Source: Vulcanimicrobiota bacterium (GTDB lineage Bacteria; Vulcanimicrobiota; Xenobia; Xenobiales; JADMJV01). From it: DNA of 64,000 nucleotides. Every line of letters starts with the position of its first letter. Position 1 is the first letter of the stretch. The notes beneath the pieces are model-generated. The model was not told where the DNA came from. It saw only the letters and a program-made list of their open reading frames with translations, and ran no database searches. Where the stretch lies: the NCBI GenBank assembly GCA_050250895.1, contig JBFWNU010000004.1:353362-417361 (forward strand), read 5' to 3'. Both the position numbers and the translations under genes were made by a program. Positions 2,887 through 52,153 of this stretch are shown here, in pieces.

Positions 2887-2903
2887 TTGCCATAGAGGGC
2901 TAG

Positions 2904-6070: not shown

Positions 6071-6073
6071 GGC

Positions 6074-8770: not shown

Positions 8771-9667
8771 ATGAGGCCGCCTAACTTCTTCGTGATCGGT
8801 GCCCCCAAGTGCGGAACGACTTCCCTGGTGGCCTGGCTATCGGACCACGAGCAGGCGTATCTGTCGCCTTCCAAGGAGCCACGCTACTTCGATCGCGACC
8901 TGAAGACCCGGTTTCGCCTCAACAAAAGCCAGTACGCGGCTCTCTTCCAGCAGGTGCGTGAAGAGCACCGAGCCATCGGAGAGGCGACGGTCCTCTACCT
9001 GTATTCAGAAGAGGCCGTGGACAACATCGAACGCGAACTGCCGGGGTCTCGCTATATCGTGATGCTGCGTAACCCCATCGACCTCGCCTACTCTCACCAT
9101 GAGCAGATGACGCTGCATCTGGGCGAGAATCTGCTGGATTTCGAAAGCGCCTGGCGAGCGAGCCCGAGAAGACGGCAGGGAAAGGGCGTCAATCCTTTCT
9201 TTCTGGCCGAGCCCCGGCTGTTGGACTATCAACGTCTGGGTCAATTGGGAAGTCAACTTGAGGCGGTCTTGCGCAAAGTCGAGCCAGAGCGCGTGCTGGT
9301 CCTGTTCCTCGAGGACCTGGTGAGAAATCCGAGAGCCGAGTATGTCAAAGTCCTCGGCTTTCTAGGCTTGGAGGACGATGGCAGAACGAGCTTTCCCAAG
9401 GAAAATCCGGCCAAGCGCGTCCGTTCACGCTATCTGCAACGCCTGATCACGATGCTCATGAAACTCGAGGTGGTGGTCCGGGCCCGACTCGGATTTGCCC
9501 CCGCCAGCTCAAGACCGCTCAGGGCTCTTAACCTTTGGAACAAGACTCCCCATCCCCGAGAGCCGATGCCTGCCCGGCTCAGGTCGGAACTCGCTCTGCA
9601 TTTTCGGGACGAGGTCGCAAAACTCGAGCAGTTGACCGGTCGCGACTTGAGCCACTGGCACCGCTAA
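8771..9667 (+). CDS. Sulfotransferase (PAPS-dependent family)
   Basis: 298 aa; 5'-phosphosulfate-binding loop FVIGAPKCGTTSL near N-terminus, later RNP.D..YS segment; AGGAGG and GGGAG purine-rich stretch upstream of ATG 8771. Confidence 0.85.
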   Translation: MRPPNFFVIGAPKCGTTSLVAWLSDHEQAYLSPSKEPRYFDRDLKTRFRLNKSQYAALFQQVREEHRAIGEATVLYLYSEEAVDNIERELPGSRYIVMLRNPIDLAYSHHEQMTLHLGENLLDFESAWRASPRRRQGKGVNPFFLAEPRLLDYQRLGQLGSQLEAVLRKVEPERVLVLFLEDLVRNPRAEYVKVLGFLGLEDDGRTSFPKENPAKRVRSRYLQRLITMLMKLEVVVRARLGFAPASSRPLRALNLWNKTPHPREPMPARLRSELALHFRDEVAKLEQLTGRDLSHWHR

Positions 9668-23458: not shown

Positions 23459-23532
23459 TGATGCTTACCAGTTCTTGGCGTCGCGCCCGACTAGCCCGGT
23501 GTCGACCGGCATCGCCCAGCGCCGGGATGACG

Positions 23533-23590
23533 CAAGTCTAAGACAGTATACGAGATCCTCCGAGATTTCAAGTCTTTGGCCAAGTCTTCA
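23533..23590. promoter_or_regulatory. Three direct copies of CAAGTCT (plus two CGAGAT) in the region upstream of the thioester reductase-PKS-SDR operon
   Basis: Copies at ~23533, ~23569 and ~23581 in the 130-bp gap between the hydroxylase gene end and the reductase start codon (23458, minus strand). Confidence 0.3.
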
Positions 23591-26513: not shown

Positions 26514-27973
26514 TGGATTTCTTACCTGTGCTCTCTGAATCGGCCCAGGCCTTCTGGCGTACCAGTTACGGCCTGCTGCTGTTTTTGACCCTGTTGCTGA
26601 CCTGGCCGGCTTCGAAGTGGTTCTTCCGCAGCGAGAAGTGGGGTGGCTATGCCGAATCGAGCCCCACCGTCGATCTCGTTCAGAACCCCTTCATCCATCC
26701 CCTGGTGATGGGACTGTGGTTCACCTGCGCCACCATGCTGATGCTGGGACGCGACACCGTCCTGTTCGCTCTCATCAACCTGGGCCTGTGCTGGTATTTT
26801 TTCATCTACATGCGTTGGCGCGGCATCTTGCGCGGCATGGGGGCTCCCGGCTTCATGTGTTACTGGATGGGAGCGGCGGTGCTGTTTCTCGAGGCTGGTC
26901 GCCATCTCGACCCCAGCGGCCGCTTGCTGGCGGCGGGTCTTTTCGCCTTTCAGGTCGACTACGCCATCATCCAGCTGTGTGCGGGCAGCTACAAGCTGCG
27001 AGCCGGCTATCCCCGCAACGAGGGCATGCAGTTAGGAATGGCCAATCCCTGGTGGGGCTACTACTGGCGCTTCTTCAAGCAGCTCGATTACACCCATCCT
27101 CTCTACGTCTTTCTCAACCAATCGGCCTATCTGACCCAAATCGGGGCGGCCTTCTTGATGCTCTATCCTCCGACGCGGTTGCTGGGAGCAGGCATCATCA
27201 TGGCCAGCTTCGTGTTCATTCTCACCCAGATCCGCCTGGGTGTGCTGTGCGAGATGGTCATTATCGGCGGCCTGTTGTTCATCCCAGCCGGCGGCGTGGT
27301 CGACGGTTGGGTGACCTGGCTGATGGGGCACCCCCAGGTGCCCCAGAGTCTGCCCCAGATGCCGCCCTGGCTGGCTACAGGCCTGGCCGCTTTCTTCTGC
27401 GTTTATATCGCCTTGCTACCCTTTGCCAAGTTCGGCCAGTGGTATAACTATCTGGCCCACCAGCGTTTGCCCGAACCTTTTCAGACCTTCCTCGAGAAGT
27501 GGACCAACGCCTTCGGCATCATCATCTGGCGCGTCTTCTCGGTGGATGTGGTCAACTTCTTCGTCCGCGTCTATCAGGTCGACGGCGATGGCCGCGAGCA
27601 AGAATACACCTGTTTCGGAAAGATCGACTGGCCGACGCGCTGGCGCTATATCCATGTGGGCGAGTTCGTCTGCTTTGCCTCGATTTTCACGACGCTAAAA
27701 TATCATCCCAGCAACTCGGAGATGTTTCGCGCCAAGCTGGTTCGCTACGCCCGCACCATTCCTTGTCCCTCCGGAGGCAAGCTTCGCTTTGCCTATTTCT
27801 CGCTGGCCCGCGGCCAGGGAGAGATCGAACATCGCCACAGTGCCGACTTCCTCGTCGAGCCCCACTCGGGCCACCTCGAGGTGCGCCAGTATGACGACCT
27901 TGACCTGAGCAAGGGCCATGCCGTTTCTCCCGTGCGAGAGGGTGCCCGACCTGGAACCTACGCGCCGGCCTGA
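26513..27973 (+). CDS. Polytopic integral membrane protein, unknown function
   Basis: ~486 aa; ATG at 26513 overlaps upstream stop (TGATG); N-terminal two-thirds highly hydrophobic with Trp/Tyr-rich helices, C-terminal soluble region. Confidence 0.6.
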   Translation: MDFLPVLSESAQAFWRTSYGLLLFLTLLLTWPASKWFFRSEKWGGYAESSPTVDLVQNPFIHPLVMGLWFTCATMLMLGRDTVLFALINLGLCWYFFIYMRWRGILRGMGAPGFMCYWMGAAVLFLEAGRHLDPSGRLLAAGLFAFQVDYAIIQLCAGSYKLRAGYPRNEGMQLGMANPWWGYYWRFFKQLDYTHPLYVFLNQSAYLTQIGAAFLMLYPPTRLLGAGIIMASFVFILTQIRLGVLCEMVIIGGLLFIPAGGVVDGWVTWLMGHPQVPQSLPQMPPWLATGLAAFFCVYIALLPFAKFGQWYNYLAHQRLPEPFQTFLEKWTNAFGIIIWRVFSVDVVNFFVRVYQVDGDGREQEYTCFGKIDWPTRWRYIHVGEFVCFASIFTTLKYHPSNSEMFRAKLVRYARTIPCPSGGKLRFAYFSLARGQGEIEHRHSADFLVEPHSGHLEVRQYDDLDLSKGHAVSPVREGARPGTYAPA

Positions 27974-29066
27974 ATTCGGGCTGGCCACTTCGGCCTTTCA
28001 AGTCGAAGGCGGTTGGTCCGAGCGAGGTGCTTCCATTTGGGATGAGGCCTGTCCTCAGGCAGCCACAGCCTGCGGCAGCTGGCCCGACTTCGAGGGTGAA
28101 CTGGCCATGCTGGGCTGGCTGGGCGCCGAAGCCTTTCGCTTCTCTCTGGCCTGGCCTCGGCTTTGCCCGGACGGACGCCGATTTGAACTTGCTCGGCTGG
28201 CCCCTTACGAGCGCTTGGTGGAGCGATTACTGGAAGCCTCGATTCGGCCCGTTCCCACCCTCTATCATTGGGACCTGCCGCTGGCCCTCGAGGGCGGCTG
28301 GAAAAACCCCGACACGGCCCATCGCTTTGCAGACTACGTCGAGGCGGTGACAGGGCGGCTCTCGGACCGAATCGGACAATGGTTCACCCTCAACGAGCCG
28401 TGGTGCAGCTGTCATCTGGGCTATGAGACCGGCGAGCACGCCCCCTTCGAAACTTGCCCGCCCCGGGTGGTAGCCCAGGTTCGTGACCACCTGCTCGGGG
28501 CTCATCGCCTGGCGGTCCAGGCCATTCACGCCGCCGGAAGCCGCTGCGGCGCCGCCATGCTGCCGATTCCGTTGGTGGCCGCCGGACCCGAACACGAAGA
28601 GGCGGCCGAACTGGCCTGGCGCGAGGTCAACGATGTCTGGTTCGAGCCGCTCTATCCAGCCGACTTTCTGGGTCTCAACCTCTACTATCCCACTCTGGTC
28701 GAAGCCGTCGACGGCGGCTGGCGAGAGGTTCCCTGGTCGGGACCTCGCACCAGCCTGGGCTGGCCCGTGGACCCGGGCTTCTACGGCCCCACCATCGAGA
28801 AGGTCCTGGGCCGCTATGGTCCTCAAACTCTGGTGATCAGCGAAACCGGTTGGGCCACCTCTGATGACAGCCAAAGACAGCAGTGGCTCGAGGCCTCGCG
28901 GCTTGACCAGCTGCCGGTCGAAACGGTCTTCTTCTGGAGCCTGATGGACAATCTAGAGTGGCAGCACGGGTTCGAGCCTCAATTCGGGTTCTTCAGCCGC
29001 CAGGGCCAACCCAAACCCAGCGCCGCCTGGCTCAGGCGTAATTGGGGCCAAGCGAGGGGCGACTAG
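27918..29066 (+). CDS. Glycoside hydrolase family 1 (beta-glucosidase-like)
   Basis: 382 aa; N-terminal FGLATSAFQVEG, acid/base TLNEP, nucleophile ISETGW; start overlaps upstream gene by ~56 nt so true start may be the GTG at ~27942. Confidence 0.85.
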   Translation: MPFLPCERVPDLEPTRRPEFGLATSAFQVEGGWSERGASIWDEACPQAATACGSWPDFEGELAMLGWLGAEAFRFSLAWPRLCPDGRRFELARLAPYERLVERLLEASIRPVPTLYHWDLPLALEGGWKNPDTAHRFADYVEAVTGRLSDRIGQWFTLNEPWCSCHLGYETGEHAPFETCPPRVVAQVRDHLLGAHRLAVQAIHAAGSRCGAAMLPIPLVAAGPEHEEAAELAWREVNDVWFEPLYPADFLGLNLYYPTLVEAVDGGWREVPWSGPRTSLGWPVDPGFYGPTIEKVLGRYGPQTLVISETGWATSDDSQRQQWLEASRLDQLPVETVFFWSLMDNLEWQHGFEPQFGFFSRQGQPKPSAAWLRRNWGQARGD

Positions 29067-30495: not shown

Positions 30496-31221
30496 CTATA
30501 GCCTTCGATAGAGCGAGAGAAACCGTTCACTGGAAGCGGTCAACGGCGTCTTGTTCCAATCGCCGTACCGGGCCTCTAGAGCCAGCCCCGCCAGCCGGGC
30601 CATCAGGTCGAGTTCGCTGGGCCAGACGTAGCGCAATTCGGCCGGATAGCACTCGATGCCCCCCGTGCCCATCAAGAGATGGCGGGCCGAGACGCGCTGG
30701 CGAACCAGGTCGTGGATGGCGAAGTGGACATGAACACCGTCGTCGGTCATGGCGTAAGCGGCCACCCGCTGTCCTCGATCAAAGCGAGCCGGGTCCGGCC
30801 AGAAAGCCTCGACCAGAAATCGACCCCCGGGCTCGAGATGGGCAGCCACGCACTCCATGCAATGGATTTGATGCTCCTGGTCGAGCAGAGCCAGAAAGGT
30901 CGAGAAGGCGATGAAGACCAGCCCGTAGCGTCGCTGCAGCTCGAAGTCGCGAAAGTCGGCCCGGTGCACCGTCAGCTCGGTGCCGCCTGGCTTGGCCCGC
31001 AACATCTCGATCATCAGATCGGAGATATCGAGCCCTTCGATCTCGACCCCGGCCTCGGCCAGCGGCAGGGCCAGCCGGCCGGTCCCGATGCCCAGCTCGA
31101 GGACCCGCCGCGAACCTGCCAGTTCAAGCAAAAGCTCGACGGCCCCGGGCTCGGGGTCGGGGTAGAGCCGGTCGTAGATTGGCGCGATGGTATCCCCGTA
31201 GGTGCTGGGGTTATAGGGCAC
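30496..31221 (-). CDS. Class I SAM-dependent methyltransferase
   Basis: 241 aa; motif I VLELGIGTGR; apparent GTG start overlapping the stop of the upstream coiled-coil gene. Confidence 0.8.
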   Translation of the reverse strand: MPYNPSTYGDTIAPIYDRLYPDPEPGAVELLLELAGSRRVLELGIGTGRLALPLAEAGVEIEGLDISDLMIEMLRAKPGGTELTVHRADFRDFELQRRYGLVFIAFSTFLALLDQEHQIHCMECVAAHLEPGGRFLVEAFWPDPARFDRGQRVAAYAMTDDGVHVHFAIHDLVRQRVSARHLLMGTGGIECYPAELRYVWPSELDLMARLAGLALEARYGDWNKTPLTASSERFLSLYRRL

Positions 31222-32198
31222 TAGACGGAGTAGATGCCCATATCGAACAGGGCGTTGGTGAGATAGGCCGGCAGCACCTCGGAGAAGTTCTCGTTCTTAG
31301 GCTGGGCGTTAGCGGCGGCCATCATCTGGCGAGGGTCCATCAAGAAGTTGTCTTGCTGTTTCTGCGATTTGGCGGCCTCTCGTTCGGCGGCCATGGCCTG
31401 AGCCATGTCTCGGTCGTAATCGAGCAGGGCCTGTAAGTCTTCGGAGCCCTCTTCGGCCTGGGCGTGCCGCTGCTCCATCTCGCGCAGTTGCGAGAGTCCG
31501 CTATCGGCTTTGGCCAGGATCTCGCCGGTCGGCGGCAGGTCGATCTTCCAGCGCTCGTCATCTTGATCTTGCTGCAGCTTGAGAGCCTTTTTCTTGCTGT
31601 CGACGACCATCCGCTGGAGCTCGCCCTGCAAGATGGGGTCGTGCAGCGCGCCTTGATTCTGGGCCAAGAACTGCTTCACATTGGTGGTCTCGTTCTTGGT
31701 GAACGACTCGCGCTGGTCGGCGTGCTTGGTGGCCAACTCGTTGCGTTTGGCGGTCTCGAACCCTTCCCGGGCGAGACGTTGCTGCGGGTTCTCTGGCCCT
31801 TTCTCGACCTGGGGGCGGCCCTGCTGATCGAGAGCCACCTCGGGCTTGCCGTCGTTGCCGAATTTGGTGGCATAGTGGTTCTCTTCGAAGAACTCTTGCT
31901 TCATCTGGCCCAGCTCGTTCTGCAGGTTCTGCTGCAGGTTCTGTCGTTCGCCATAGTGCTGGGTCTGCATCTGTTGCAGGTTGTTGAAGGATTTCTCGGG
32001 GTAGTCTGGGACCTTGAAGTCGAACGTGATGGGGGACTTTAGTTCGGGCTCGTCGCGCTGCAGCAGGTCCAGATTGCCTTTCATTGCGTCGGTCTGACGC
32101 TGCATCTGCTGGATCTGGTTGCGCATCTGGTTGCCCTGCGTCAACCCTTGAATTGTGTTGATGAGCAAACCGACGCCCATTACCGCCCACATTGCCAT
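31221..32198 (-). CDS. Gln/Asn/Glu-rich coiled-coil protein with N-terminal membrane anchor
   Basis: Frame 31221..32261 trimmed to ATG ~32198 (MAMWAVMGVGLLINTIQG), which has AAAGGAG 9 nt upstream; remainder is strongly Q/E/K/N-rich helical heptad-like sequence. Confidence 0.55.
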   Translation of the reverse strand: MAMWAVMGVGLLINTIQGLTQGNQMRNQIQQMQRQTDAMKGNLDLLQRDEPELKSPITFDFKVPDYPEKSFNNLQQMQTQHYGERQNLQQNLQNELGQMKQEFFEENHYATKFGNDGKPEVALDQQGRPQVEKGPENPQQRLAREGFETAKRNELATKHADQRESFTKNETTNVKQFLAQNQGALHDPILQGELQRMVVDSKKKALKLQQDQDDERWKIDLPPTGEILAKADSGLSQLREMEQRHAQAEEGSEDLQALLDYDRDMAQAMAAEREAAKSQKQQDNFLMDPRQMMAAANAQPKNENFSEVLPAYLTNALFDMGIYSV

Positions 32199-32284
32199 GT
32201 TGGGACAACTCCTTTTGTCTTTTTTGGAGAGGGCATACTTCTCCAGGTCCCATGCTAACACAAACTATAGGGCGCAAGTCAAGG

Positions 32285-34444
32285 ATGCCGGGCACTTACG
32301 GCGAAACCAAACCCATGGGGCAATCACCAACGGTCCTGGTGGCCGGCGCTGACGAGTCGGTCCGCCAAGCGCTAGATGTCTGTTTTCCCGATCTCGCCAT
32401 GGACCGATTCGAGACCGGGCGTGCCGCCATGAATGCTCTGCTCAAGAGCCATTACGATCTGGTCGTGCTCGACCATCGACTCCAGAAGCCCGACGGGGTA
32501 AAGCTGCTAGAGTACCTGGCCAACCATCCCCGCCTGCGCGAAGCCCAGGTCATTTACTGCCTCGGCAAACATGTCGATGCCGCTCTACCCCGGCGTCTGG
32601 TCACCGAGCTCGGCGTCACGTCGCTCATCTATCATCCGGTCGAGCCCGAAGAGCTTTGTTTTCAGATGGCTCGGCTGCTGGGCTTGCCGTCGCCGGTAGC
32701 CCTACCCCGCCTGACCGTGGACACCCGGCGAACCACCAGTCGAGGCGACGGTGAAGGGGGGCTCTTGCTAGCGGTGGGCCTGGGTGAAGACATGGTGGCG
32801 GATCTCATCCCGCGGGCCACGGCCCGACGCTTGCGTACGGCCGTGTCCGAAGATTGGCAGAGCCTGACCGCGGCCGAGTGGATCGAAGACCCACCCCAAC
32901 TCTTGCTGGTCGACCTCAGCGGGCCCGAACGCAAAGAGAGGATGGCCCTTTTCGGGCGGATTCACGAACTCGAACTCAACACCCAGGTCATCGCCCTCGT
33001 CGGCGAAGAGCTGCAAGACAGGGTCGAAGCTTCCAACCGCGGGGCAGCCCGGGTGCTGACCAAGCCCTTCACCATCGAGGCCGTGATGGATGCCATCTAT
33101 GACGTGCTCGAGAGCAACAAAGAAGAGCAACTCAAGATTCTAGTGGTAGACGACGATCCCCTGACCCTGGCCAACTTGCAGTGGCTGCTCACCCAGACGG
33201 GCTACCGCGTGCAGACCCTGAGCCAGCCGTTGGCCTTTTGGGAATCCCTCGAGTCGTTCGTGCCCGACATGGTGATCCTCGATGTCATCATGCCAGCCGT
33301 GAGCGGTCTTGACCTTTGCCGAGCGGTGCGCACCGATTTGCGCTGGCGCGATCTACCGCTGCTGTTTTTGACCATTCAAAGTGACGCGGTGACCGCCCAC
33401 AACCTGTTTCAGGCCGGGGCCGACGACTTTCTCAACAAGCCCCTGCACAGCCTGGAAGTGCTGACCCGGGTGACCAACCGTCTGTCCCGCGCTCGCACCG
33501 CCCGCAGCGCCGATCGGGATGGCCTGACCGGAGTGCTGACCCGACGACGGGCCGCTCCCACCCTGCGCCGCCTGCTGCGCATGGCCGACCGCCGCGACAT
33601 CCCCTTCTCGTTGTGCGTGCTGGATCTCGACAACTTCAAGCAGGTCAACGACACCCACGGCCACCCGGCCGGCGATCAGGTGCTGGCCGCTCTGGGCAAA
33701 CTGCTCCACCGGGCTTTCCGCAACGAGGACGTGGTGGCCCGTTGGGGTGGCGAAGAGTTCGTGGTCGGTCTCTATGGCATGCCCTCTAGCACCGCCTCAC
33801 GCCGACTGCGCGGGTGCCTCGAGAAGCTGCGCAAACGGATCTTTCGCGGGCCGTCAGGTCCGTTCGGGGCCACCTTCAGCGCCGGGGTGGCCGAGTACCC
33901 TCGCGACGGTGAAGACATTCAGACCCTTTACGCCCAGGCCGATGCCGCCCTTTATGAGGCCAAGCAGAAAGGCCGCGACCAGGTGGTCGAGGTCTCTGAG
34001 CAGCGCCAACCAACGGTCAGTCGGGTGGTGCGCAAGGTCGACATCGCACTGGTGGCTCCGGTGGCGGAATGGAGCCATCTGCTGGCCGACGGCCTCAACG
34101 AGACCGGCTACAGCTCGGTGTGGTTCGAATCCACCGAAGAGGCCACCGCTCAGCTGACGGTGACTCCGGCCGAACTCCAGGCGAAACTGATCGTCTTGGA
34201 CCTTGACTCCACCGGCAGCCTGCTCGAAGACCTGCGCCTGGACCGCCGACGCGACTTCACCCAGGTCCTGGCGGTGACGGGTCAGACCAACGCCGAGGTT
34301 CGCCTCTGGGCTCTCGACCAGGGAGCCTATGATTGTCTCGAAGCCGGCTGCGGACTGCCGTTGATGTTGCGCAAGCTGGATCGAGCAATGCAGTTTGGCT
34401 ACATGTCCGAGCATATGCCTCGGCCGACCGCGGCACGCTCGTAA
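32285..34444 (+). CDS. Multi-receiver response regulator with GGDEF diguanylate cyclase domain
   Basis: Degenerate REC-like segments, then a canonical REC (KILVVDDDPL ... MVILDVIMP ... FLNKP), GGDEF domain with RNED I-site-like motif immediately before GGEEF, and a C-terminal receiver-like segment; start among in-frame ATGs at ~32252/32285/32315 is uncertain. Confidence 0.8.
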   Translation: MPGTYGETKPMGQSPTVLVAGADESVRQALDVCFPDLAMDRFETGRAAMNALLKSHYDLVVLDHRLQKPDGVKLLEYLANHPRLREAQVIYCLGKHVDAALPRRLVTELGVTSLIYHPVEPEELCFQMARLLGLPSPVALPRLTVDTRRTTSRGDGEGGLLLAVGLGEDMVADLIPRATARRLRTAVSEDWQSLTAAEWIEDPPQLLLVDLSGPERKERMALFGRIHELELNTQVIALVGEELQDRVEASNRGAARVLTKPFTIEAVMDAIYDVLESNKEEQLKILVVDDDPLTLANLQWLLTQTGYRVQTLSQPLAFWESLESFVPDMVILDVIMPAVSGLDLCRAVRTDLRWRDLPLLFLTIQSDAVTAHNLFQAGADDFLNKPLHSLEVLTRVTNRLSRARTARSADRDGLTGVLTRRRAAPTLRRLLRMADRRDIPFSLCVLDLDNFKQVNDTHGHPAGDQVLAALGKLLHRAFRNEDVVARWGGEEFVVGLYGMPSSTASRRLRGCLEKLRKRIFRGPSGPFGATFSAGVAEYPRDGEDIQTLYAQADAALYEAKQKGRDQVVEVSEQRQPTVSRVVRKVDIALVAPVAEWSHLLADGLNETGYSSVWFESTEEATAQLTVTPAELQAKLIVLDLDSTGSLLEDLRLDRRRDFTQVLAVTGQTNAEVRLWALDQGAYDCLEAGCGLPLMLRKLDRAMQFGYMSEHMPRPTAARS

Positions 34445-34455
34445 AGGCTGACCCA

Positions 34456-34480
34456 GGGTGGGGCGGGGCCGGCCCTTTTC
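34456..34480 (+). terminator. Possible weak intrinsic terminator after the GGDEF regulator gene
   Basis: GC-rich stretch GGGTGGGGCGGGGCCGGCCC able to form a short stem (GGGGC/GCCCC-type pairing) followed by TTTT, 12 nt after the TAA stop. Confidence 0.25.
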
Positions 34481-34506
34481 ATACAAGTTCACACCGTTGA
34501 AACAAC

Positions 34507-35607
34507 ATGCTCGCTGGCGAAAAGCATGCATGGGGAATGAACCTGAACCCATCCGCCCACACCGTATCCCCCCACCGCGCCGCGGGTTGTTTCAACTGGC
34601 CCGGCACCAAGCCGCCGGAAGAGCCCCCCAAGCCCCCGGCCCCGCCGAACCCGCTCGATCCCCCGGTCAATCGCGACCGCCTGGTGGACACCTTCATTCG
34701 CTTCACCCAGGTAGAAGGTCCCACCCGCAACGAGCGCAAGATCGCTGACGCCATCAAGGCCGAATTGGCCGATCTCGGCCTGTCCGCCACCGAAGACGAC
34801 GCCGGTCCTAAGATTGGTGGCAACACGGGCAACCTGATCGTCAACATCAAGGGCAACGTCGAGGGTGCGCCTTCGCTGCTGTTTGCTGCCCACATGGACA
34901 CCGTGCCTCTAGCCGTCGGCGTCAAACCGCAAATCGGCGAAGACGGCATCATTCGCAGCGACGGCACCACTGCCCTTGGCGGCGACAACCGCGCCGGTGT
35001 CTCGGAAATCCTCGAAGCTTATCGCGAGATCAAAGAGAACAACCTGCCCCACGGCGACCTGCAGTTTCTCTTCACAGTCGGCGAAGAAGGCGGCCTCCTG
35101 GGCGCCCGGGCGCTTGACCCCAGCGTGCTGAAGTCTGACTTCGGCTTCGCCGTGGACGTGTTCAAAGCCAACCAGCTTTACACCCAGGGACGCCATCTCT
35201 TGATCGATGGACAGGAACCCGATTTCTCGCCCGAAGGAGTCCACGCGGCCAAAGACGCAGCCGCCAACTCGCCCATCATTCCGCCCGAGCACCTCGACCT
35301 GCGCCCTGAGGAAGTCGACATCATGAACTTTGCTGGTGGGGCCATGAAAGACATCGGTCTCGAACCCGAGTTCCACCGCATCGAGTGGGCCGGAACCGAC
35401 GCCATCGCCCTGCGCCGCCACGGCATGAACGCCATCAGCCTCGGCGCCGGCGAGAACCGGCCTCACACCACCCGCGAGTTCGTCGAGATCAATGACCTGG
35501 TGGCCAGCACCACCCTGATTCGCTCGATGATCGCCAAAGCGGCTGCCCAGGGCATGGCCGCCGCCGCCGTGGGCGGCCCGGCCGGAGCCGCGCTGGCCAC
35601 CGCCTAG
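34507..35607 (+). CDS. M20/M42-family metallopeptidase (aminopeptidase-like)
   Basis: Metal-ligand pattern AAHMDTV ... GGDNRAG ... GEEGG; start uncertain (alternative ATG ~34537). Confidence 0.6.
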   Translation: MLAGEKHAWGMNLNPSAHTVSPHRAAGCFNWPGTKPPEEPPKPPAPPNPLDPPVNRDRLVDTFIRFTQVEGPTRNERKIADAIKAELADLGLSATEDDAGPKIGGNTGNLIVNIKGNVEGAPSLLFAAHMDTVPLAVGVKPQIGEDGIIRSDGTTALGGDNRAGVSEILEAYREIKENNLPHGDLQFLFTVGEEGGLLGARALDPSVLKSDFGFAVDVFKANQLYTQGRHLLIDGQEPDFSPEGVHAAKDAAANSPIIPPEHLDLRPEEVDIMNFAGGAMKDIGLEPEFHRIEWAGTDAIALRRHGMNAISLGAGENRPHTTREFVEINDLVASTTLIRSMIAKAAAQGMAAAAVGGPAGAALATA

Positions 35608-37273: not shown

Positions 37274-37816
37274 GTGAGCGACACTTTCAACGACGAGGCG
37301 CTGACCCACTCCGAAGCCCTGTACCGCTTCGCGCGGCGGCTTTGTCGTTTGCCGGCCGACGCCGAAGACTTGCTCCAAGAAACCTTCCTCAAGGCCTATC
37401 GCTCCTTTCACCAGTACACTCCCGGCACGAACTGCAAGTCGTGGCTGTTTCGCATCATGCACAACTGCCACCGCCAGAAGTGGCGCAAAGCCGAAACCCG
37501 AGCCACCCATGTGGCCATCGAGCAAGAGGGCGGTGAATTCGTGCTGCACAACTACATGCTCGAAAAAGACGAGACCTATCGAGACAATCCCGAAAAGCGG
37601 CTACTCGACCGCTTGCCCTCGGCCGCCATGCAAAAGGCTCTCGAAGAATTGCCCGAAGAGTACCGCACCACGCTGTTGCTGTGCGACGTCGAGCAGATGT
37701 CGTATCAAGAAGTGGCCGATCTGCTGGAGGTGCCGATCGGCACGGTCCGCTCGCGACTCAACCGGGCTCGCGGCCGGCTGCAGCGAAGGCTCATGCAACT
37801 GCAATCACTCGAGTAG
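37274..37816 (+). CDS. ECF-type RNA polymerase sigma-70 factor
   Basis: 180 aa; region 2 LLQETFLKAYRSF, region 4 HTH YQEVADLLEVPIGTVRSRLNRAR; apparent GTG start. Confidence 0.9.
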   Translation: MSDTFNDEALTHSEALYRFARRLCRLPADAEDLLQETFLKAYRSFHQYTPGTNCKSWLFRIMHNCHRQKWRKAETRATHVAIEQEGGEFVLHNYMLEKDETYRDNPEKRLLDRLPSAAMQKALEELPEEYRTTLLLCDVEQMSYQEVADLLEVPIGTVRSRLNRARGRLQRRLMQLQSLE

Positions 37817-40264
37817 TTCACCCTCTTCTTCCTCGACGTAGGGCGGCAAAGCGATCGAGAAGGTGGCTCCCCGATCGGGTTGCGAGCGCAAGGCCAGACT
37901 GCCGCCATTGCGTTCGACCAGTTCCAGGCTGACCGAAAGCCCGAGACCGGTGCCCTGGCCGACATCCTTGGTGGTGAAGAAAGGGTCGAAAATACGGTCT
38001 TGCAGCTCGGGCGCCACCCCCGGACCGGTGTCGACCACCTCGAGCAAGACCCTCTCCCCGTCAAAGCGCGAAAAGACCGTGACCAGGGTGTCGGAGGCTT
38101 CGGGCAAAAGCACGGCGTCCTTAGCATTGATGATCAGGTTGGTCAGGACCTGTTGGAGCTCGGTGCGGTTGGCGCGAACCAGCGGAACCTCGGAGAGCCG
38201 CTTCTCCAGGCGGACCCCCAGCTTGACCACTTGAGGGCCGATGAGGGCCAGAGTGTCGCTGAGCACCTGGTTGGGATCGACGGTCTGCTGTTCAGAGGGT
38301 GCCCGGCGTGAATAGACGAGCAGCTTGGAGATGATCTCGCGGGCGCCTTTGGCCGCTTCTTCGGCCACCGCCAGCTTCTTGTCGGCTGGTCCGAGGTTGC
38401 CCTTTTTGATGTTGATCCGCACCGATTGGACGGCCAACAGGATGGCCGCCAACGGCGAGTTGATCTCATGGGCCACCCCGGCCGCCAGCTGCCCGATGGC
38501 GGCCATCTTCGAGGATTGCACCAACTGAGCTTGCGATTCTTCCAACTCTTGATTGGTAGCCAGAACCTGCTGATAGAGACGACTGTTGGTGCAGACCGCG
38601 GCCGCGTGGTAGGCCAGGGTCATCAGCACGTCCTGATCATTGCGGGAAAAGGCGTTGGGCGTGGGCGAGGTTAGCGTGACGATACCCTCGACCCGGTCCT
38701 CGGACAGGATCGGCACCACCAGCACCCCTTTGGCGCCGGCCGTCGGCTGGCCAAAGCGAGACGTCTGGATATCTTCAAAGAGCAAAGGGCAGCCCTGCGT
38801 GGTGGCTGCCTGCAGCAACCCCTCGAGCGCAGGGGTCCAGCGAACCGAGTCGGGCCAATGCAGACGCAACGAGCGTTCGTCGCTCAAGAGCACGATGCAG
38901 CCAGCCTGGTGATGAGGCACCAACCCTCGGGCCAGCCGCTGGAGCCGGTCGAGCAGGGCGGCCGGGTCGAGGGTCGAGGCCATCTCTCCCGAGGCCGCCA
39001 GCATCGCCGCCAGGCGCTCGTTCCACAAGGAAAGATTCTGGTTGGCCTCCGCCTGCGAAGTCAGGGCCGTGCCCAGCTCTTCGGACCGGCGGGCCGAGAC
39101 CAGCGCTGGCACCACCTGGTCGGCCAGCAGTGCCAGCAGGTTCAGTTCGGCCCGCTCGAAACGCTCGCGGTGAATCTTGCCACAATAGAGCACCCCCACC
39201 CGAAACAGCGGCAGAGCCACCGCGCTTTGCTCGTCGTCGAAAAGGCGCGGACCGGCCAGGTGGTGTGGCTTGGTCAAGAGCACCTTGCGCTCTTGCCAGC
39301 ACTGCAACACGATGGGTTCGTGGGTATCGAGCAGTTCGAAGCTCTCGAGCTTCTCGCGGTGGCGGCTCTTCCAGCCCTTGGGCACCAGTCGCTCTGCCTC
39401 TTCCAGAAAGATGACGGCACTGTCGCAGCGCACCACCCGCTGAGCCATGGTGACGGCCATCTCGATGGTCGCCTCGAGCCCCGGTCCGCGGGCCAGTTCG
39501 GCCGCCAACTGGTCGAGCAGGGCACGCTCTTCATACTTCTCGCTCAAAGTTCGCTGGGTCACGTTGAGGGCGTTGCCCAGCTTTTCAGCCTGCCGCTCGG
39601 CTGCCTCCTGGCGTTGCTTGAGCAGGCGGCGGGTCAGGGTTTCGACCTCGCTGGTGACGAAGCGGCCGAAGCGAACCCCCGACATCAGGATGGGCATGGT
39701 GGCTAGCGCCAGCCACGGCTCGGTCTGCATGCTGGTGGCGATCAGGGGAGCCAGGAGTCCCGCCCCGGCCTGGAACGGGAAGAGATTCAGCCGAATGAAA
39801 CTCTCTTGTTCGGGGTCGATGTCACCGGCTAGTTGGCCGGGCAACCACAGCATCAAGGGCGAGTAAAGGCCGAGCGCCAGGAAAGTGCGCCCCAACAAGC
39901 CCGGATCCGTGAAGAGCACCTCGGCCGGTGGCCCCGACAGCGTCAGGGCCATCAGTCCGGGCAGCAGGTCCACCAATATGTCGCGAAGTTTGGGGCCGCC
40001 ATGGAGCACGCTCTTGAGCAAGACTCCACCAACCATAAACAGGACGGCCGCTCGCAGCCCCACCCCTTCGGTGAGTGCGATGGCCAGATAGATGGGGAAA
40101 GCCAGGCTGAACAGTCCGTAGCCAGGCACCACCACAGCTCGCGCCTCGATCACCACCACAGCGATGAGATAGGCGTAAAGGAGAACCGAGGAGGTGGGAT
40201 TTGTGCCGACCCAGAGGTCGAAAGCGCCCAGAACCAGGCAAAGCAGCAGGGCTGGGCGTTCCAA
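37805..40264 (-). CDS. Sensor histidine kinase with N-terminal membrane domain and GAF-like segments
   Basis: 819 aa; hydrophobic N-terminal third; HisKA phospho-acceptor box AAGVAHEINSPLAAI; HATPase_c G-boxes (DTGPGV, GTGLGLS); 12-nt convergent overlap with sigma gene end. Confidence 0.85.
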   Translation of the reverse strand: MERPALLLCLVLGAFDLWVGTNPTSSVLLYAYLIAVVVIEARAVVVPGYGLFSLAFPIYLAIALTEGVGLRAAVLFMVGGVLLKSVLHGGPKLRDILVDLLPGLMALTLSGPPAEVLFTDPGLLGRTFLALGLYSPLMLWLPGQLAGDIDPEQESFIRLNLFPFQAGAGLLAPLIATSMQTEPWLALATMPILMSGVRFGRFVTSEVETLTRRLLKQRQEAAERQAEKLGNALNVTQRTLSEKYEERALLDQLAAELARGPGLEATIEMAVTMAQRVVRCDSAVIFLEEAERLVPKGWKSRHREKLESFELLDTHEPIVLQCWQERKVLLTKPHHLAGPRLFDDEQSAVALPLFRVGVLYCGKIHRERFERAELNLLALLADQVVPALVSARRSEELGTALTSQAEANQNLSLWNERLAAMLAASGEMASTLDPAALLDRLQRLARGLVPHHQAGCIVLLSDERSLRLHWPDSVRWTPALEGLLQAATTQGCPLLFEDIQTSRFGQPTAGAKGVLVVPILSEDRVEGIVTLTSPTPNAFSRNDQDVLMTLAYHAAAVCTNSRLYQQVLATNQELEESQAQLVQSSKMAAIGQLAAGVAHEINSPLAAILLAVQSVRINIKKGNLGPADKKLAVAEEAAKGAREIISKLLVYSRRAPSEQQTVDPNQVLSDTLALIGPQVVKLGVRLEKRLSEVPLVRANRTELQQVLTNLIINAKDAVLLPEASDTLVTVFSRFDGERVLLEVVDTGPGVAPELQDRIFDPFFTTKDVGQGTGLGLSVSLELVERNGGSLALRSQPDRGATFSIALPPYVEEEEGELLE

Positions 40265-41399: not shown

Positions 41400-42098
41400 A
41401 TGCCAAACTTCTCGCAAGTTCCCCCGCACGCCTCGGGTCGCCTGGGCAAGTTGCTGCTCATCGAAGACAACCCCGAACTCTCGCGCTTGCTAGAAGCCTA
41501 TCTGAGCAAGCAGGGCTTCGAACTCGAGGCCGTGGACGAGGGGGACGGAGTGCTCGAGCAACTCAAGCAGGGCTATGACCTGATTCTGCTCGACTTGCTC
41601 TTGCCCGGCATTAGCGGCATGGAAGTCATCAAGCGAGTGCGCGCTCGCACGCCCCTGCCCATCCTGGTGATCTCGGCTTGCGCGGCGGGCGAGGACCGGG
41701 TCAAGGCTCTCGACCTGGGGGCCGACGACTACCTGGTGAAGCCGTTCCTGCCGGCCGAACTGGTGGCTCGGGTGCGGGCCCTCTTAAGACGAACCCGAAC
41801 GGTCCAGCCCTCAGCTTATGAGTCGGTGCTCGAGATCGATCCGGCCAGTCGCGAGGTCCGCCTGCTGGGGCAGCCCGTCGATCTCACCGAGCGCGAGCGC
41901 GAATTACTGATGGTGCTGGCCTCCGAGCCGGGTCGAAACTTTACCCGAGCCGAACTGCTGGAGCGAATCTGGGGAGGCACCCAGGATACCCGTCGCGTCG
42001 ACCTCTACATCAGCCGCATTCGAGCCAAGTTGCGGCTACCAGGCGACCAGGAGTTCGTCCATTCCATCTACGGAGTAGGCTATCGCTTTGGCCAGTGA
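41400..42098 (+). CDS. OmpR-family response regulator
   Basis: Receiver LLLIEDN ... LILLDLLLPG ... LVKPF followed by winged-helix output (LTERERELL ... VYGVGYRF). Confidence 0.9.
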   Translation: MPNFSQVPPHASGRLGKLLLIEDNPELSRLLEAYLSKQGFELEAVDEGDGVLEQLKQGYDLILLDLLLPGISGMEVIKRVRARTPLPILVISACAAGEDRVKALDLGADDYLVKPFLPAELVARVRALLRRTRTVQPSAYESVLEIDPASREVRLLGQPVDLTERERELLMVLASEPGRNFTRAELLERIWGGTQDTRRVDLYISRIRAKLRLPGDQEFVHSIYGVGYRFGQ

Positions 42099-42110
42099 GA
42101 AGTCCGTCCC

Positions 42111-43475
42111 GTGCGCCTGAAAAACTTGCTGACCCTGGCTCTGGTCGCCTTGAGCCTGCTGGTCCTTGCCATCTACAGCGCCCTGTTCCGGAATACCGGG
42201 CTGGCCGACGCCCAGGGACCGCCCCCCGTGGTCTTTCATTTTCCCAACAGCCGTGAGGTCCATCTGGCCGAGCAACACCGGTGGCCCGAGCTACGCCACC
42301 ATCTCGGCACGGTCCCCTGGCCCCCCGACACCGCGGCTGCCTACCAGCCTCTGGCGGGCGAGCGGATTCAGCTTCGGCACTTCGTGGATGACTTTCCTCA
42401 GAATCTCATCGACCGCTCGGATGAGGCGGGAACCTGGTTGCTCGAGGTCCACCCCGACTTCGTCTATCAGGTGTTTCCCATTCATCGCGACGGTCGATTG
42501 GATGGACACGTGCTGGTCCATCTCACGCCCGGCCCGCGCTTCAACGAGCACCGGCGTCCCGCCATGGTCACGGCTCGTTGGGCCAGCGCGACGGTGGCCT
42601 TGCTGGTCTGCCTGATGATGGTGCAGCTGGCCAGCCGCCGCTCGGCCGTTCGCCTGGAAGAGCTGGCCCAGGCCGCTCTCAGTCTCTCGGCCGGCCAGCG
42701 CCGGCGCCTGGACCCGCCCCGAGTCCCCCTCGAGTTAGCCCAGTTGGGAGAGGCCTTCAACACCATGAGCGACCAGCTCGAAGAGCGTATGGCGCGGTTG
42801 GTGGAAGCTCGCCAGGCGGCCGAAGAGGCCGATCGATTGCGGCGGGACTTCATCGCCGATATCGCCCACGGCATCGGCACCCCCCTGGCCTCGATCCACC
42901 TGAGACTGCAGTCTCTAGGCTCCCTTACACCGAGCGAGCGCAGCCAGGCCGAGAAGAAGTTGCTGCGCGACATCGCCTGGGTCAGCCAGGCCTCGCGGCG
43001 ACTGCTCGACCTATCGGTGTGGGAGACGGTCGAGCCCGAACTGCGTCTGACCGAGTTCGACCTGATGCAGCCGGTCATGGAGACCATCGAGACCCTCGAA
43101 GAACCGTTGCTCGAGGCCGGCATGGAGCTCGACCTCAAAGATCTGCGCGCTCTGCAGGTCCGGGCCGACCTCGGGGCGGTGCGCGAGATTCTGGTGGCCT
43201 TGCTCGAGAACTGTGTCAAACACTCGGGAGGAAATTGTCGTTTGCTGGTCAGGGCCGAAGAGAGCGAGGGTCAGGTCGAGGTGACCATCCGGGACGAAGG
43301 GGTGGGAATGGGCGAAGAGCAGCTGAGTCGGGCCGCTCAACGCCACTACACCACCGGCGGCAGCGGATTGGGTCTGGCCATCGCCCGCCGCCTCGTCGAG
43401 GCCCATGGCAGCCGCCTATCGATCACCAGTGCTCCCGGCCAGGGGGTGGAGTTTCGCTTTCGCCTAGATTCTTAG
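42111..43475 (+). CDS. Sensor histidine kinase (TM-HAMP-HisKA-HATPase_c)
   Basis: Two hydrophobic segments, HisKA box FIADIAHGIGTPLASI, ATP-binding boxes DEGVGM and GGSGLGLAI; 13 nt after the response-regulator stop. Confidence 0.9.
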   Translation: MRLKNLLTLALVALSLLVLAIYSALFRNTGLADAQGPPPVVFHFPNSREVHLAEQHRWPELRHHLGTVPWPPDTAAAYQPLAGERIQLRHFVDDFPQNLIDRSDEAGTWLLEVHPDFVYQVFPIHRDGRLDGHVLVHLTPGPRFNEHRRPAMVTARWASATVALLVCLMMVQLASRRSAVRLEELAQAALSLSAGQRRRLDPPRVPLELAQLGEAFNTMSDQLEERMARLVEARQAAEEADRLRRDFIADIAHGIGTPLASIHLRLQSLGSLTPSERSQAEKKLLRDIAWVSQASRRLLDLSVWETVEPELRLTEFDLMQPVMETIETLEEPLLEAGMELDLKDLRALQVRADLGAVREILVALLENCVKHSGGNCRLLVRAEESEGQVEVTIRDEGVGMGEEQLSRAAQRHYTTGGSGLGLAIARRLVEAHGSRLSITSAPGQGVEFRFRLDS

Positions 43476-52141: not shown

Positions 52142-52153
52142 TCCGCGCTGCAG

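What the first reader, a model, noticed from the sequence alone, without database searches (positions are those of the whole stretch)
32285..34444. Multi-receiver GGDEF regulator with intact I-site between the two glycan-related neighbourhoods
Seen: one canonical receiver (KILVVDDDPL ... FLNKP), additional receiver-like segments before and after, and a GGDEF domain with GGEEF and an RNED motif immediately upstream. Established: GGDEF domains synthesise c-di-GMP, RxxD I-sites confer product inhibition, and c-di-GMP commonly controls exopolysaccharide production. Inference: a phosphorylation-gated c-di-GMP source for the flanking polysaccharide or glycolipid genes; the cognate kinase is not adjacent.
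Basis: partly seen in the sequence, partly recalled or inferred. Interest (0 to 1): 0.45.

Follow-up and report, generated by a model that had tools for sequence, protein, structure and literature searches.

The report
Response-regulator diguanylate cyclase with three dead receivers
This gene encodes an ordinary-looking phosphorylation-switched enzyme that makes the bacterial signal c-di-GMP; its oddity is three extra, apparently dead receiver domains left from a larger relay-type ancestor, and nothing ties it to the sugar-polymer genes further along the window.

Summary
The gene (public call 32315..34444, +, 709 aa; NCBI "response regulator", Vulcanimicrobiota/Eremiobacterota MAG) has one canonical receiver (REC3: D279-281, D323, T353, K375). 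A GGDEF domain follows, with every PleD catalytic residue conserved, GGEEF at 478-482, and RNED at 469-472 at the canonical I-site spacing. Three further receiver folds (REC1, REC2, C-terminal REC4) are real but lack the acidic Mg2+ pocket, and some lack the Thr or Lys, so they are probably pseudo-receivers.

New here: the protein is a reduced member of a widespread, apparently unstudied family, pseudoREC-Hpt-REC-REC-GGDEF(-REC). Of the 120 best hits, 115 keep the Hpt histidine. Sampled members lie in operons with a sensor kinase and a single receiver, often followed by a HEAT protein and a PgaC-like glycosyltransferase. The target clade lost Hpt, the REC2 and REC4 pockets, and those partner genes.

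The link to the flanking glycan clusters is not. I found no PilZ, MshEN or Hpt domain, no other GGDEF gene and no c-di-GMP riboswitch in the 64 kb, and those clusters lie 9-23 kb away. An orphan GAF kinase 3.4 kb downstream is only a candidate partner. Modest interest.

The parts
32315..34444 (+). Residue numbers in this report count from 32315.
   Evidence: ORF list. Exact protein is on record in NCBI GCA_050183855.1, named 'response regulator [Vulcanimicrobiota bacterium]'.
32327..32683 (+). REC1, residues 5-123: pseudo-receiver found across its branch of the family. G11/A12 replace the acidic pair, D53 is kept, L is at the Thr position, and H107-P108 replaces Lys-Pro.
   Evidence: Pfam Response_reg 35.6 bits. 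Key-residue table. (beta-alpha)5 fold at pLDDT about 90. Same-position match to family members, E 5e-16 to 1e-4.
32684..32758 (+). Linker of 25 residues, disordered over most of its length in the model, at the position where family members carry an Hpt domain of roughly 90-110 residues.
   Evidence: Alignments A1/A2 show a gap opposite the Hpt block with its conserved motif EREAHKLAGSVGTFG. pLDDT is below 50 for residues 128-146. No Hpt hit in Pfam.
32759..33124 (+). REC2, residues 149-270: degenerate receiver. G155-L156-G157 replace DDD, D200 is kept, V is at the Thr position, and K250 is kept.
   Evidence: Pfam 25.8 bits, partial match. Key-residue table. (beta-alpha)5 fold in the model. Matches REC2 of P0040 and P0052 at E 4e-6 and 3e-5.
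33131..33514 (+). REC3, residues 273-400: the only complete receiver (D279-D280-D281, phospho-acceptor D323 at 33281..33283, T353, K375). A long alpha5/linker helix (379-400) leads into the GGDEF domain.
   Evidence: Pfam 90.4 bits. These residues are invariant (T353 in at least 90% of sequences) in the 64-sequence alignment. Aligns to PleD D1, DgcR and WspR receivers. Helix 379-400 in the model.
33515..33994 (+). GGDEF domain, residues 401-560. D437, N445, D454, K550 and R554 correspond to PleD D327, N335, D344, K442 and R446.
   Evidence: Pfam GGDEF 132 bits. Residue-by-residue alignment to PleD 2wb4/1w25. Foldseek superposes the domain on solved GGDEF domains at rmsd 1.5-2.0 A, TM (target-normalised) 0.85-0.91.
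33719..33730 (+). RNED (R469-D472), the RxxD inhibitory site, five residues before GGEEF.
   Evidence: Translation. Aligns with PleD R359-D362. R469 and D472 are at least 90% conserved in the family.
33746..33760 (+). GGEEF active-site motif (residues 478-482).
   Evidence: Translation. Invariant in the 64-sequence alignment.
34028..34414 (+). REC4, residues 572-700: C-terminal degenerate receiver. A-P-V replace E/D-D-D, D629 and T655 are kept, A677-G678 replace Lys-Pro, and four residues are deleted in the beta3-alpha3 loop.
   Evidence: Pfam only 17 bits. Matches the canonical C-terminal receiver of P0018 and P0052 at E 2-3e-13. Key-residue table. (beta-alpha)5 fold at pLDDT about 90.
31221..32198 (-). 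Divergently transcribed 325-aa Q/E-rich coiled-coil protein with a hydrophobic N-terminal segment. This is the neighbour conserved with the cyclase; its function is unknown, and it is listed as context only.
   Evidence: 72% identical and in the same divergent arrangement in L002. Only a weak DUF7491 coiled-coil hit.
37805..40264 (-). Orphan, non-hybrid GAF-GAF-HisKA-HATPase_c histidine kinase. It is a candidate phosphodonor by proximity only, and it is not present in the part of the L002 locus available.
   Evidence: Precomputed Pfam. The NCBIfam kinase-core matches are all below equivalog cut-offs. L002 has no kinase within about 10 kb downstream, where its contig ends.

Best explanation
The gene encodes a response-regulator diguanylate cyclase. 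Its working core is REC3-GGDEF, of the same kind as DgcR, WspR and PleD. Inferred mechanism: an unidentified histidine kinase phosphorylates D323 of REC3. The receiver then dimerises, and the alpha5/linker helix brings two GGDEF domains together to condense 2 GTP into c-di-GMP. Product bound at the R469xxD472 site then limits output. REC1, REC2 and REC4 keep the receiver fold and the central Asp but lack the acidic Mg2+-binding residues (REC1 and REC4 also lack Lys; REC1 and REC2 lack Thr). They most likely act as non-phosphorylatable scaffold, dimerisation or partner-binding modules, as the D2 adaptor does in PleD. In evolutionary terms the protein is a reduced derivative of a widespread family, pseudoREC-Hpt-REC-REC-GGDEF(-REC). 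That family carries its own phosphorelay step, and all five sampled Hpt-bearing members with enough flanking sequence sit directly downstream of a sensor kinase and a single receiver. The target clade lost the Hpt domain, the REC2 and REC4 pockets and those operon partners. The domain anatomy, residue conservation and family relationship are shown by the data. The activation path, the pseudo-receiver roles and the direction of evolution are inferred.
For: Domains and scores. Every PleD catalytic or binding residue aligns with an identical residue, and the RxxD spacing is identical. The receiver key-residue table for the target plus its 120 best hits shows REC3 as DDD/D/T/K in the target and in most hits (a few carry Ser for Thr or another single substitution). 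REC2 and REC4 are canonical in most relatives but are GLG/D/V/K and APV/D/T/A in the target. The Hpt His is present in 115 of the 120 hits. The segments are positional orthologues of family domains. The AlphaFold2 model has pLDDT 86.8, four (beta-alpha)5 modules, a 22-residue alpha5/linker helix, and disorder at the site where Hpt is missing. The best structural matches are PleD, WspR and DgcR. Family operons: kinase - single REC - cyclase - HEAT - GT2 in L085, L005, L088 and L090, with L013 (cut at its 5' end) showing cyclase - HEAT - GT2 only; kinase - REC - cyclase beside an MshEN ATPase in L089. In neighbour-joining trees of the REC3-GGDEF core, the Hpt-less trio (target, P0002, P0126) groups in 190 of 200 bootstraps. 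Hpt-bearing taxa separate it from the other Hpt-less pair (P0048, P0050) in 200 of 200. That fits at least two secondary losses. No Hpt gene is annotated in the window.
Against: There is no experimental evidence for activity, phosphorylation or inhibition. Each pseudo-receiver keeps the Asp at the phospho-acceptor position, and REC2 keeps Lys, so low-level or unusual phosphorylation cannot be excluded. PleD R390, the third I-site residue, is Lys here. The cognate kinase is unknown. The model's pTM of 0.43 gives no reliable domain arrangement. The tree root is arbitrary, and the sister relation to the Hpt-bearing Eremiobacterota protein P0006 has only 36 of 200 support. Loss rather than gain of Hpt therefore rests on parsimony.
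Confidence: 0.65

Rival explanations
1. One reading: the enzyme is the dedicated c-di-GMP source for the flanking polysaccharide (Wzx/Wzy) and PKS-glycolipid clusters, or for the GT2/YdjC group on the other side.
For: It is the only GGDEF gene in the 64 kb window, and glycan genes lie on both sides. At family level, Hpt-bearing relatives are co-operonic with a PgaC/IcaA-like GT2. From general knowledge, c-di-GMP often controls exopolysaccharide production.
Against: The nearest polysaccharide or PKS gene ends about 9 kb upstream and the right-hand group starts about 20 kb downstream, with unrelated genes between (methyltransferases, peptidase, ATP-grasp, sigma/anti-sigma, kinases, MutS2, BrxD). 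No PilZ, MshEN or degenerate-GGDEF receptor and no riboswitch was found. The family's HEAT and GT2 partners have no homologue in the window at E 1e-10. c-di-GMP diffuses, so linkage is not required but is also not evidence.
Confidence: 0.15
2. All four receivers are still working phospho-acceptors, so the protein integrates several kinases or acts as a phosphate sink, as the full-length family presumably does.
For: D53, D200 and D629 are retained at the acceptor position. REC2 keeps K250 and REC4 keeps T655. Two kinases lie nearby.
Against: None of the three has the acidic pair that holds Mg2+, which established receiver chemistry requires. REC1 and REC4 also lack Lys, and REC4 has a four-residue deletion in the beta3-alpha3 loop. 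Loss of Hpt removes the internal phosphodonor. The next relative, P0126, has lost the pocket even in REC3, so this lineage is shedding phospho-signalling.
Confidence: 0.1
3. The GGDEF domain works mainly as a c-di-GMP sensor through its I-site, or as a scaffold, rather than as an enzyme.
For: The intact RxxD could bind c-di-GMP. The many pseudo-domains suggest a scaffold.
Against: All catalytic, metal-binding and substrate-binding residues are intact and are at least 90% conserved in the family. Receptor-type GGDEF domains normally have degenerate active sites.
Confidence: 0.05

Closest known systems
PleD (Caulobacter crescentus), REC-pseudoREC-GGDEF; PDB 1w25, 2v0n, 2wb4
   Same: It is the best sequence and structure match. 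It is a phosphorylatable receiver plus a non-phosphorylatable receiver-fold adaptor plus a GGEEF cyclase, with RxxD at identical spacing and all catalytic residues identical.
   Different: In PleD the pseudo-receiver sits between the active receiver and GGDEF. Here the active receiver abuts GGDEF, as in DgcR and WspR, two pseudo-receivers precede it and one follows GGDEF. The NCBIfam PleD equivalog scores 217.5 against a cut-off of 474, so this is not a PleD orthologue. PleD R390 is Lys here.
DgcR (Leptospira biflexa; PDB 6zxb, 6zxm) and WspR (Pseudomonas; 3bre, 3i5a), REC-GGDEF
   Same: The REC3-linker-GGDEF core aligns end to end with both (query 274-558 against DgcR 2-292). It includes the long alpha5/linker helix and the DxLT start of the GGDEF domain.
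   Different: These are two-domain proteins. The DgcR equivalog scores 133.7 against a cut-off of 500. The target adds about 270 N-terminal and 140 C-terminal residues of pseudo-receiver.
Uncharacterised family pseudoREC-Hpt-REC-REC-GGDEF(-REC), e.g. Longimicrobium terrae P0052, Eremiobacterota P0006, Terriglobia P0040. Cyanobacterial members have an OmpR-type N-terminus.
   Same: Collinear homology over the whole length, 36-44% identity. Each target segment matches the same-position domain. REC1 shares the pseudo-receiver signature of its branch of the family (GL/GF/GV ... D ... mostly HP).
   Different: The target lacks the Hpt domain and its conserved His, has degenerate REC2 and REC4, and lacks the kinase / single-REC / HEAT / GT2 operon partners. 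I found no paper on this family in the held library.
CdgK/CdgS of Anabaena PCC 7120 (PMC9927289)
   Same: A REC-GGDEF cyclase activated by phosphorylation of its receiver Asp through a His-Asp-His-Asp relay. This shows how an Hpt step can feed a cyclase.
   Different: There the Hpt and the extra receivers are part of the hybrid kinase CdgK, not of the cyclase. CdgS is a simple REC-GGDEF protein.

Membership tests
Active GGDEF diguanylate cyclase | GGDEF domain above the Pfam gathering score | tested here: met
   PF00990 scores 132.4 bits against a cut-off of 23.8 and covers the full profile 1-161.
Active GGDEF diguanylate cyclase | GG[D/E]EF motif plus the metal, guanine and phosphate-binding residues (PleD D327, N335, D344, K442, R446) | tested here: met
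   GGEEF at 478-482. D437, N445, D454, K550 and R554 align with identical residues in 2wb4/1w25. Asp, not Ser, at the D344 position indicates the canonical GTP-specific type rather than the Hypr type.
Active GGDEF diguanylate cyclase | Makes c-di-GMP from GTP | not testable with these tools
   Needs an enzyme assay.
I-site product-inhibited cyclase | RxxD five residues upstream of GG[D/E]EF | tested here: met
   R469-N-E-D472, then five residues, then G478. This aligns with PleD R359-D362.
I-site product-inhibited cyclase | Additional Arg contacts (PleD R390, R313 or adaptor-domain Arg) and measured c-di-GMP binding or inhibition | tested here: inconclusive
   The R390 position is Lys and the R313 position is Met with Arg neighbours (my reading of the alignment). 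Binding cannot be tested here.
Phosphorylatable receiver domain (CheY-like) | Acidic pair after beta1, Asp after beta3, Thr/Ser after beta4, Lys after beta5: REC3 | tested here: met
   D279-281, D323, T353, K375.
Phosphorylatable receiver domain (CheY-like) | The same five positions in REC1, REC2 and REC4 | tested here: not met
   REC1 is GA/D/L/H, REC2 is GLG/D/V/K, REC4 is APV/D/T/A. The fold is retained.
PleD family (NCBIfam NF007135 equivalog) | Score at or above the curated equivalog cut-off | tested here: not met
   217.5 bits against a cut-off of 474.
DgcR (NCBIfam NF047654 equivalog) | Score at or above the curated equivalog cut-off | tested here: not met
   133.7 bits against a cut-off of 500.
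pseudoREC-Hpt-REC-REC-GGDEF(-REC) family (defined here from the hits) | Collinear full-length homology with positional correspondence of each domain | tested here: met
   Alignments A1 and A2. Segment BLAST.
pseudoREC-Hpt-REC-REC-GGDEF(-REC) family (defined here from the hits) | Hpt domain with its conserved His (AHKLAGS) | tested here: not met
   No Pfam Hpt hit. The alignment has a gap there and the model a 25-residue, largely disordered linker.
pseudoREC-Hpt-REC-REC-GGDEF(-REC) family (defined here from the hits) | Operon with an upstream sensor kinase and a single-domain receiver (often a downstream HEAT protein and PgaC-like GT2) | tested here: not met
   The target is flanked by a divergent coiled-coil protein and an M28 peptidase. 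tblastn with the L085 HEAT and GT2 proteins finds nothing in the window.
Locus-dedicated c-di-GMP module for a polysaccharide cluster | A c-di-GMP receptor (PilZ, MshEN, degenerate GGDEF/EAL) or a c-di-GMP riboswitch within the cluster | tested here: not met
   None in the precomputed Pfam for all called genes of the window, in ten neighbouring genes scanned directly, or in Rfam. Novel receptor types would be missed.

The most novel reading that the evidence does not exclude
The three receiver folds that lost phosphorylation chemistry have been repurposed as ligand- or partner-binding regulatory modules. Precedents are the ShkA pseudo-receiver, which binds c-di-GMP (PMC7010744, PMC6969517), and PleD, which has been solved in complex with (p)ppGpp (PDB 9g85/9g86 titles). 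On this reading the lineage target -> P0126 records an internal His-Asp phosphorelay cyclase turning stepwise into a phosphorylation-independent, nucleotide- or protein-gated cyclase.
Probability: 0.12. Interest if true: 0.5.

Novelty: new variant of a known kind. Interest (0 to 1): 0.28.

Why it matters
For this window it matters little. The gene is a recognisable REC-GGDEF cyclase already annotated as a response regulator, and the suggested tie to the glycan clusters has no support. Two points have some wider value. First, it gives a clean natural series from a complete relay to a reduced form: Hpt plus three live receivers, then one live receiver (the target), then none (P0126). That series could be used to ask what pseudo-receivers do in cyclase control. 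Second, the parent family carries its own Hpt step, sits between a sensor kinase (a hybrid one in the Longimicrobium-type operons) and a PgaC-like synthase, appears unstudied, and occurs across Gemmatimonadota, Acidobacteriota, Eremiobacterota and Cyanobacteria.

Tried and rejected
It gave family loci but nothing new for the target clade.
2. Rfam at gathering thresholds found nothing in the window.
3. The promoter/terminator scan of 32100..34700 found no promoter-like site and one terminator-like site inside the gene, below the shuffle expectation. It was uninformative.
4. Foldseek with the whole model gives low global TM (0.2-0.5) because the relative domain placement is unreliable (pTM 0.43). 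Only the domain-level matches were used.
5. A regular expression for the Hpt His motif wrongly flagged many Hpt-bearing proteins. I discarded it in favour of the alignment-column table.
6. The sister grouping of the target clade with the Hpt-bearing Eremiobacterota protein P0006 was not supported (36 of 200 bootstraps), so I do not claim it.
7. Literature searches for an Hpt-containing multi-receiver GGDEF family found only systems with Hpt on the kinase or as a separate protein (CdgK/CdgS, HptB/HsbD).
8. I considered a Hypr (cGAMP-forming) GGDEF and rejected it, because Asp454 occupies the PleD D344 position.
9. I considered the TTG 32192 start and rejected it, because it would overlap the divergent gene and add 41 residues absent from all homologues.
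Full report
**1. What is at the coordinates**

A single long ORF spans 32192..34444 on the + strand. The public gene call starts at ATG 32315 and gives 709 aa. That exact protein is on record in NCBI assembly GCA_050183855.1 (contig JBFXAX010000029.1, 107 kb), named "response regulator [Vulcanimicrobiota bacterium]", that is Eremiobacterota/WPS-2. Family N-termini align with the 32315 start, so residue numbers below count from it.

**2. Domains**

- Pfam finds Response_reg (E 3.5e-45, four stretches) and GGDEF (E 1.6e-38, 132 bits against a cut-off of 23.8).
- Scanned separately, the four receiver segments score 35.6, 25.8, 90.4 and 17.0 bits against a gathering score of 30.2. Only REC1 and REC3 pass on their own.
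- Two further results show REC2 and REC4 are nevertheless real receiver folds. Each is the positional counterpart of a receiver in relatives (REC4 against P0018/P0052 E 2-3e-13; REC2 against P0040 E 4e-6).
- An AlphaFold2 model built on a 64-sequence alignment (mean pLDDT 86.8) shows four complete (beta-alpha)5 modules (residues 6-122, 150-269, 274-400, 573-700) and a GGDEF fold (407-559). Only 128-146, 563-569 and the C-terminal tail are disordered.
- Foldseek's best PDB matches are PleD, WspR and DgcR. The GGDEF domain superposes on solved GGDEF domains at 1.5-2.0 A.

**3. Is the cyclase intact?**

The HMMER alignment to PleD (2wb4, native numbering) pairs identical residues throughout:

| PleD | Target |
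|---|---|
| D327 | D437 |
| N335 | N445 |
| D344 | D454 |
| R359-x-x-D362 | R469-N-E-D472 |
| G368GEEF | G478GEEF |
| K442 | K550 |
| R446 | R554 |

The spacing between RxxD and GGEEF is the canonical five residues. The Asp at the D344 position argues for a normal GTP-specific enzyme rather than a Hypr GGDEF. The only deviation noted is Lys at the PleD R390 position. By sequence this is an active, I-site-bearing cyclase. Activity and inhibition are inferred, not shown.

**4. Which receivers can be phosphorylated?**

I aligned the target with its 120 best database hits and read the key columns. The acidic column covers the two or three residues after beta1.

| Domain | Acidic residues after beta1 | Acceptor Asp | Thr position | Lys position |
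|---|---|---|---|---|
| REC3 | D279-D281 | D323 | T353 | K375 |
| REC1 | G, A | D53 | L | H107 |
| REC2 | G155-L156-G157 | D200 | V | K250 |
| REC4 | A, P, V | D629 | T655 | A677 |

- REC3 is canonical. Its acidic triad, D323 and K375 are invariant across the 64-sequence family alignment, and T353 is kept in at least 90% of sequences.
- REC1's pattern is typical of its branch of the family (GL/GF/GV, D, mostly H-P). It is therefore an old pseudo-receiver.
- REC4 also has a four-residue deletion in the beta3-alpha3 loop.
- Established receiver chemistry needs the acidic residues to hold Mg2+. REC1, REC2 and REC4 are therefore most likely pseudo-receivers, although each retains the central Asp.

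**5. The family it comes from**

The database search gave 1463 hits at E <= 1e-10. The best 120 are 560-980-aa proteins whose precomputed domains include Hpt (PF01627). My Pfam scan of representatives gives the following order:

- pseudoREC - Hpt - REC - REC - GGDEF - REC, about 800 aa: Longimicrobium terrae P0052, Eremiobacterota P0006, P0013.
- The same without the last REC, about 680 aa: Terriglobia P0040.
- In cyanobacteria, an OmpR-type REC plus Trans_reg_C N-terminus followed by Hpt - REC - REC - GGDEF: Fischerella P0072.

In the key-residue table 115 of the 120 hits have the Hpt histidine (motif EREAHKLAGSVGTFG), and most have canonical REC2 and REC4. Five hits lack Hpt: P0001 (95% identical, partial) and P0002 (65%), both from the target's own clade, and the unrelated pair P0048/P0050, whose REC2 and REC4 remain canonical. 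In the target a 25-residue, largely disordered linker (window 32684..32758) stands where Hpt should be.

An exhaustive phmmer search with the N-terminal 270 residues against 1.84 billion representatives found one cluster at E < 1e-30 (the target's own). It also found one further contiguous, Hpt-less relative, P0126 (E 2.4e-29). P0126 has lost the pocket even in REC3 (AGS for DDD, with a loop deletion) while keeping RNED...GGEEF.

In neighbour-joining trees of the REC3-GGDEF core, target + P0002 + P0126 group in 190 of 200 bootstraps. Hpt-bearing sequences always separate them from P0048/P0050 (200 of 200). The parsimonious reading is secondary loss of Hpt, at least twice in the family. In the target's lineage, decay of the two receivers that presumably exchanged phosphate with Hpt followed. 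The root and the exact sister group are unresolved.

**6. Genomic context of relatives and of the target**

Relatives:

- Four Hpt-bearing members (L085 from L. terrae, L005, L088, L090) lie in a conserved string: sensor kinase - single-domain receiver - the cyclase - HEAT_2 protein - GT2. A fifth locus (L013, cut at its 5' end) shows the cyclase - HEAT - GT2 part only. In L088 the single receiver precedes the kinase.
- The kinase is a CHASE3-PAS-HisKA-HATPase-REC hybrid in three of them.
- The GT2's best NCBIfam match is PgaC/IcaA (E 2e-40, below cut-off). TPR proteins usually follow.
- A Terriglobia member follows a 1712-aa PAS kinase and a single receiver, and sits beside an MshEN-T2SSE-REC ATPase.
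- The parent family therefore looks like a relay-integrated cyclase with local c-di-GMP targets.

Target:

- None of this is present at the target. Its neighbours are a divergent 325-aa coiled-coil protein and a methyltransferase upstream.
- Downstream lie an M28 peptidase, an ATP-grasp protein, an anti-sigma/ECF-sigma pair and an orphan non-hybrid GAF-GAF kinase (37805..40264, -). An OmpR-type regulator with a HAMP kinase follows at 41400..43475.
- The only other locus with a close orthologue (L002) is collinear for 486-aa unknown / GH1 / 130-aa / 176-aa / methyltransferase / 325-aa | cyclase | peptidase fragment (33-78% identity), apart from an N6_N4_Mtase gene present only in L002, and then diverges.

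**7. The proposed link to glycan genes**

The window does contain:

- a Wzx/Wzy-type polysaccharide cluster (about 1-13.3 kb);
- a PKS/SDR/reductase/hydroxylase group with a GT28-like transferase (about 12-24.7 kb);
- on the other side, GT2, YdjC, acetyltransferases and DUF2079 (about 54-60 kb).

These end 9 kb upstream and start 20 kb downstream of the cyclase. The precomputed Pfam annotation of every called gene shows no PilZ, MshEN, Hpt, EAL, HD-GYP or second GGDEF domain. A direct scan of ten neighbouring genes, nine of them with no Pfam hit on record, found none either. Rfam finds no riboswitch. The family's HEAT and GT2 partners have no homologue in the window. The regulatory link is therefore an unsupported guess. 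It is not excluded, because c-di-GMP diffuses.

**8. Mechanism and rivals**

- Best explanation (0.65): a kinase-driven REC3-GGDEF cyclase with I-site feedback. It carries three pseudo-receiver modules inherited from an Hpt-containing ancestor and now used as scaffold or partner-binding surfaces.
- Dedicated regulator of the flanking glycan clusters: 0.15.
- All four receivers still phosphorylated: 0.10.
- GGDEF acting as a sensor rather than an enzyme: 0.05.

**9. Comparison with known systems, and novelty**

It works like DgcR/WspR (receiver directly fused to GGDEF through a long helix) and like PleD (presence of a pseudo-receiver adaptor). It fails the curated equivalog cut-offs for PleD (217.5 against 474) and DgcR (133.7 against 500). 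It belongs by descent to the Hpt-bearing family but fails that family's defining Hpt feature. I found no paper on that family. The nearest described logic, CdgK/CdgS of Anabaena, has the Hpt on the kinase (PMC9927289). I rate it a new variant of a known kind. Interest is modest (0.28), and the more interesting object is the parent family in other genomes.

Noticed in passing
L085:3017-10892 (Longimicrobium terrae); also L005, L013, L088, L090: Conserved operon: sensor kinase (a CHASE3-PAS hybrid in three loci) - single receiver - pseudoREC-Hpt-REC-REC-GGDEF-REC cyclase - HEAT_2 protein - PgaC/IcaA-like GT2, usually followed by TPR proteins. L013 is cut at its 5' end and shows only cyclase - HEAT - GT2. 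It looks like a self-contained phosphorelay-to-c-di-GMP-to-polysaccharide module, and I found no literature on it.
   Followed up: partly
L089:451-10723 (Terriglobia contig): The family member lacking the C-terminal receiver follows a 1712-aa multi-PAS kinase and a single receiver. It sits next to an MshEN-T2SSE-zinc ribbon-REC ATPase, a possible local c-di-GMP effector.
   Followed up: no
P0126 (531 aa, metagenomic protein): This is the nearest Hpt-less relative outside the target's own cluster. All three of its N-terminal receivers are degenerate, including the one fused to GGDEF (AGS for DDD, loop deletion), while RNED...GGEEF is intact. It appears to be a phosphorylation-independent end point of the same lineage.
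   Followed up: partly
window 49074-54103: A BrxD-like ATPase (50837..52141 +, PADLOC BrxD E 1.5e-140) is preceded by a 589-aa protein and followed on the opposite strand by a 649-aa protein. Neither of those two has any Pfam or PADLOC hit, and no other BREX components were seen nearby.
   Followed up: partly
window 31221-32198 (-): A 325-aa Q/E-rich coiled-coil protein with a hydrophobic N-terminal segment is divergently transcribed from the cyclase. It is 72% identical and in the same arrangement in the only other orthologous locus (L002). Its only hit is a weak DUF7491 match.
   Followed up: partly
window 26510-27973 (+): A 486-aa protein with no Pfam hit is the best-conserved gene of the syntenic block (78% identity to L002). 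It lies immediately upstream of, and slightly overlaps, a GH1 glycosidase (27918..29066).
   Followed up: no
window 12035-24676: A glycolipid-like biosynthetic group: GT28/EryCIII-like glycosyltransferase, a 422-aa protein with a faint condensation-domain match, an SDR, a 2236-aa type I PKS (KS-AT-ACP-KR-DH), a thioester-reductase-like Epimerase/NAD_binding_4 protein and an Asp/Arg hydroxylase.
   Followed up: no
window 1-12656: A Wzx/Wzy-type polysaccharide cluster that also includes a sulfotransferase (8771..9667) and a GH10 glycosidase (6074..7462). This suggests a sulfated or remodelled polymer.
   Followed up: no
window 32684-32758: In the linker that replaces Hpt, 'LTVDTRRTTSR' aligns with 'L..ETRR.AEREAH' of Hpt-bearing relatives. 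It may be a remnant of the helix preceding the lost phospho-histidine, or an alignment artefact.
   Followed up: no
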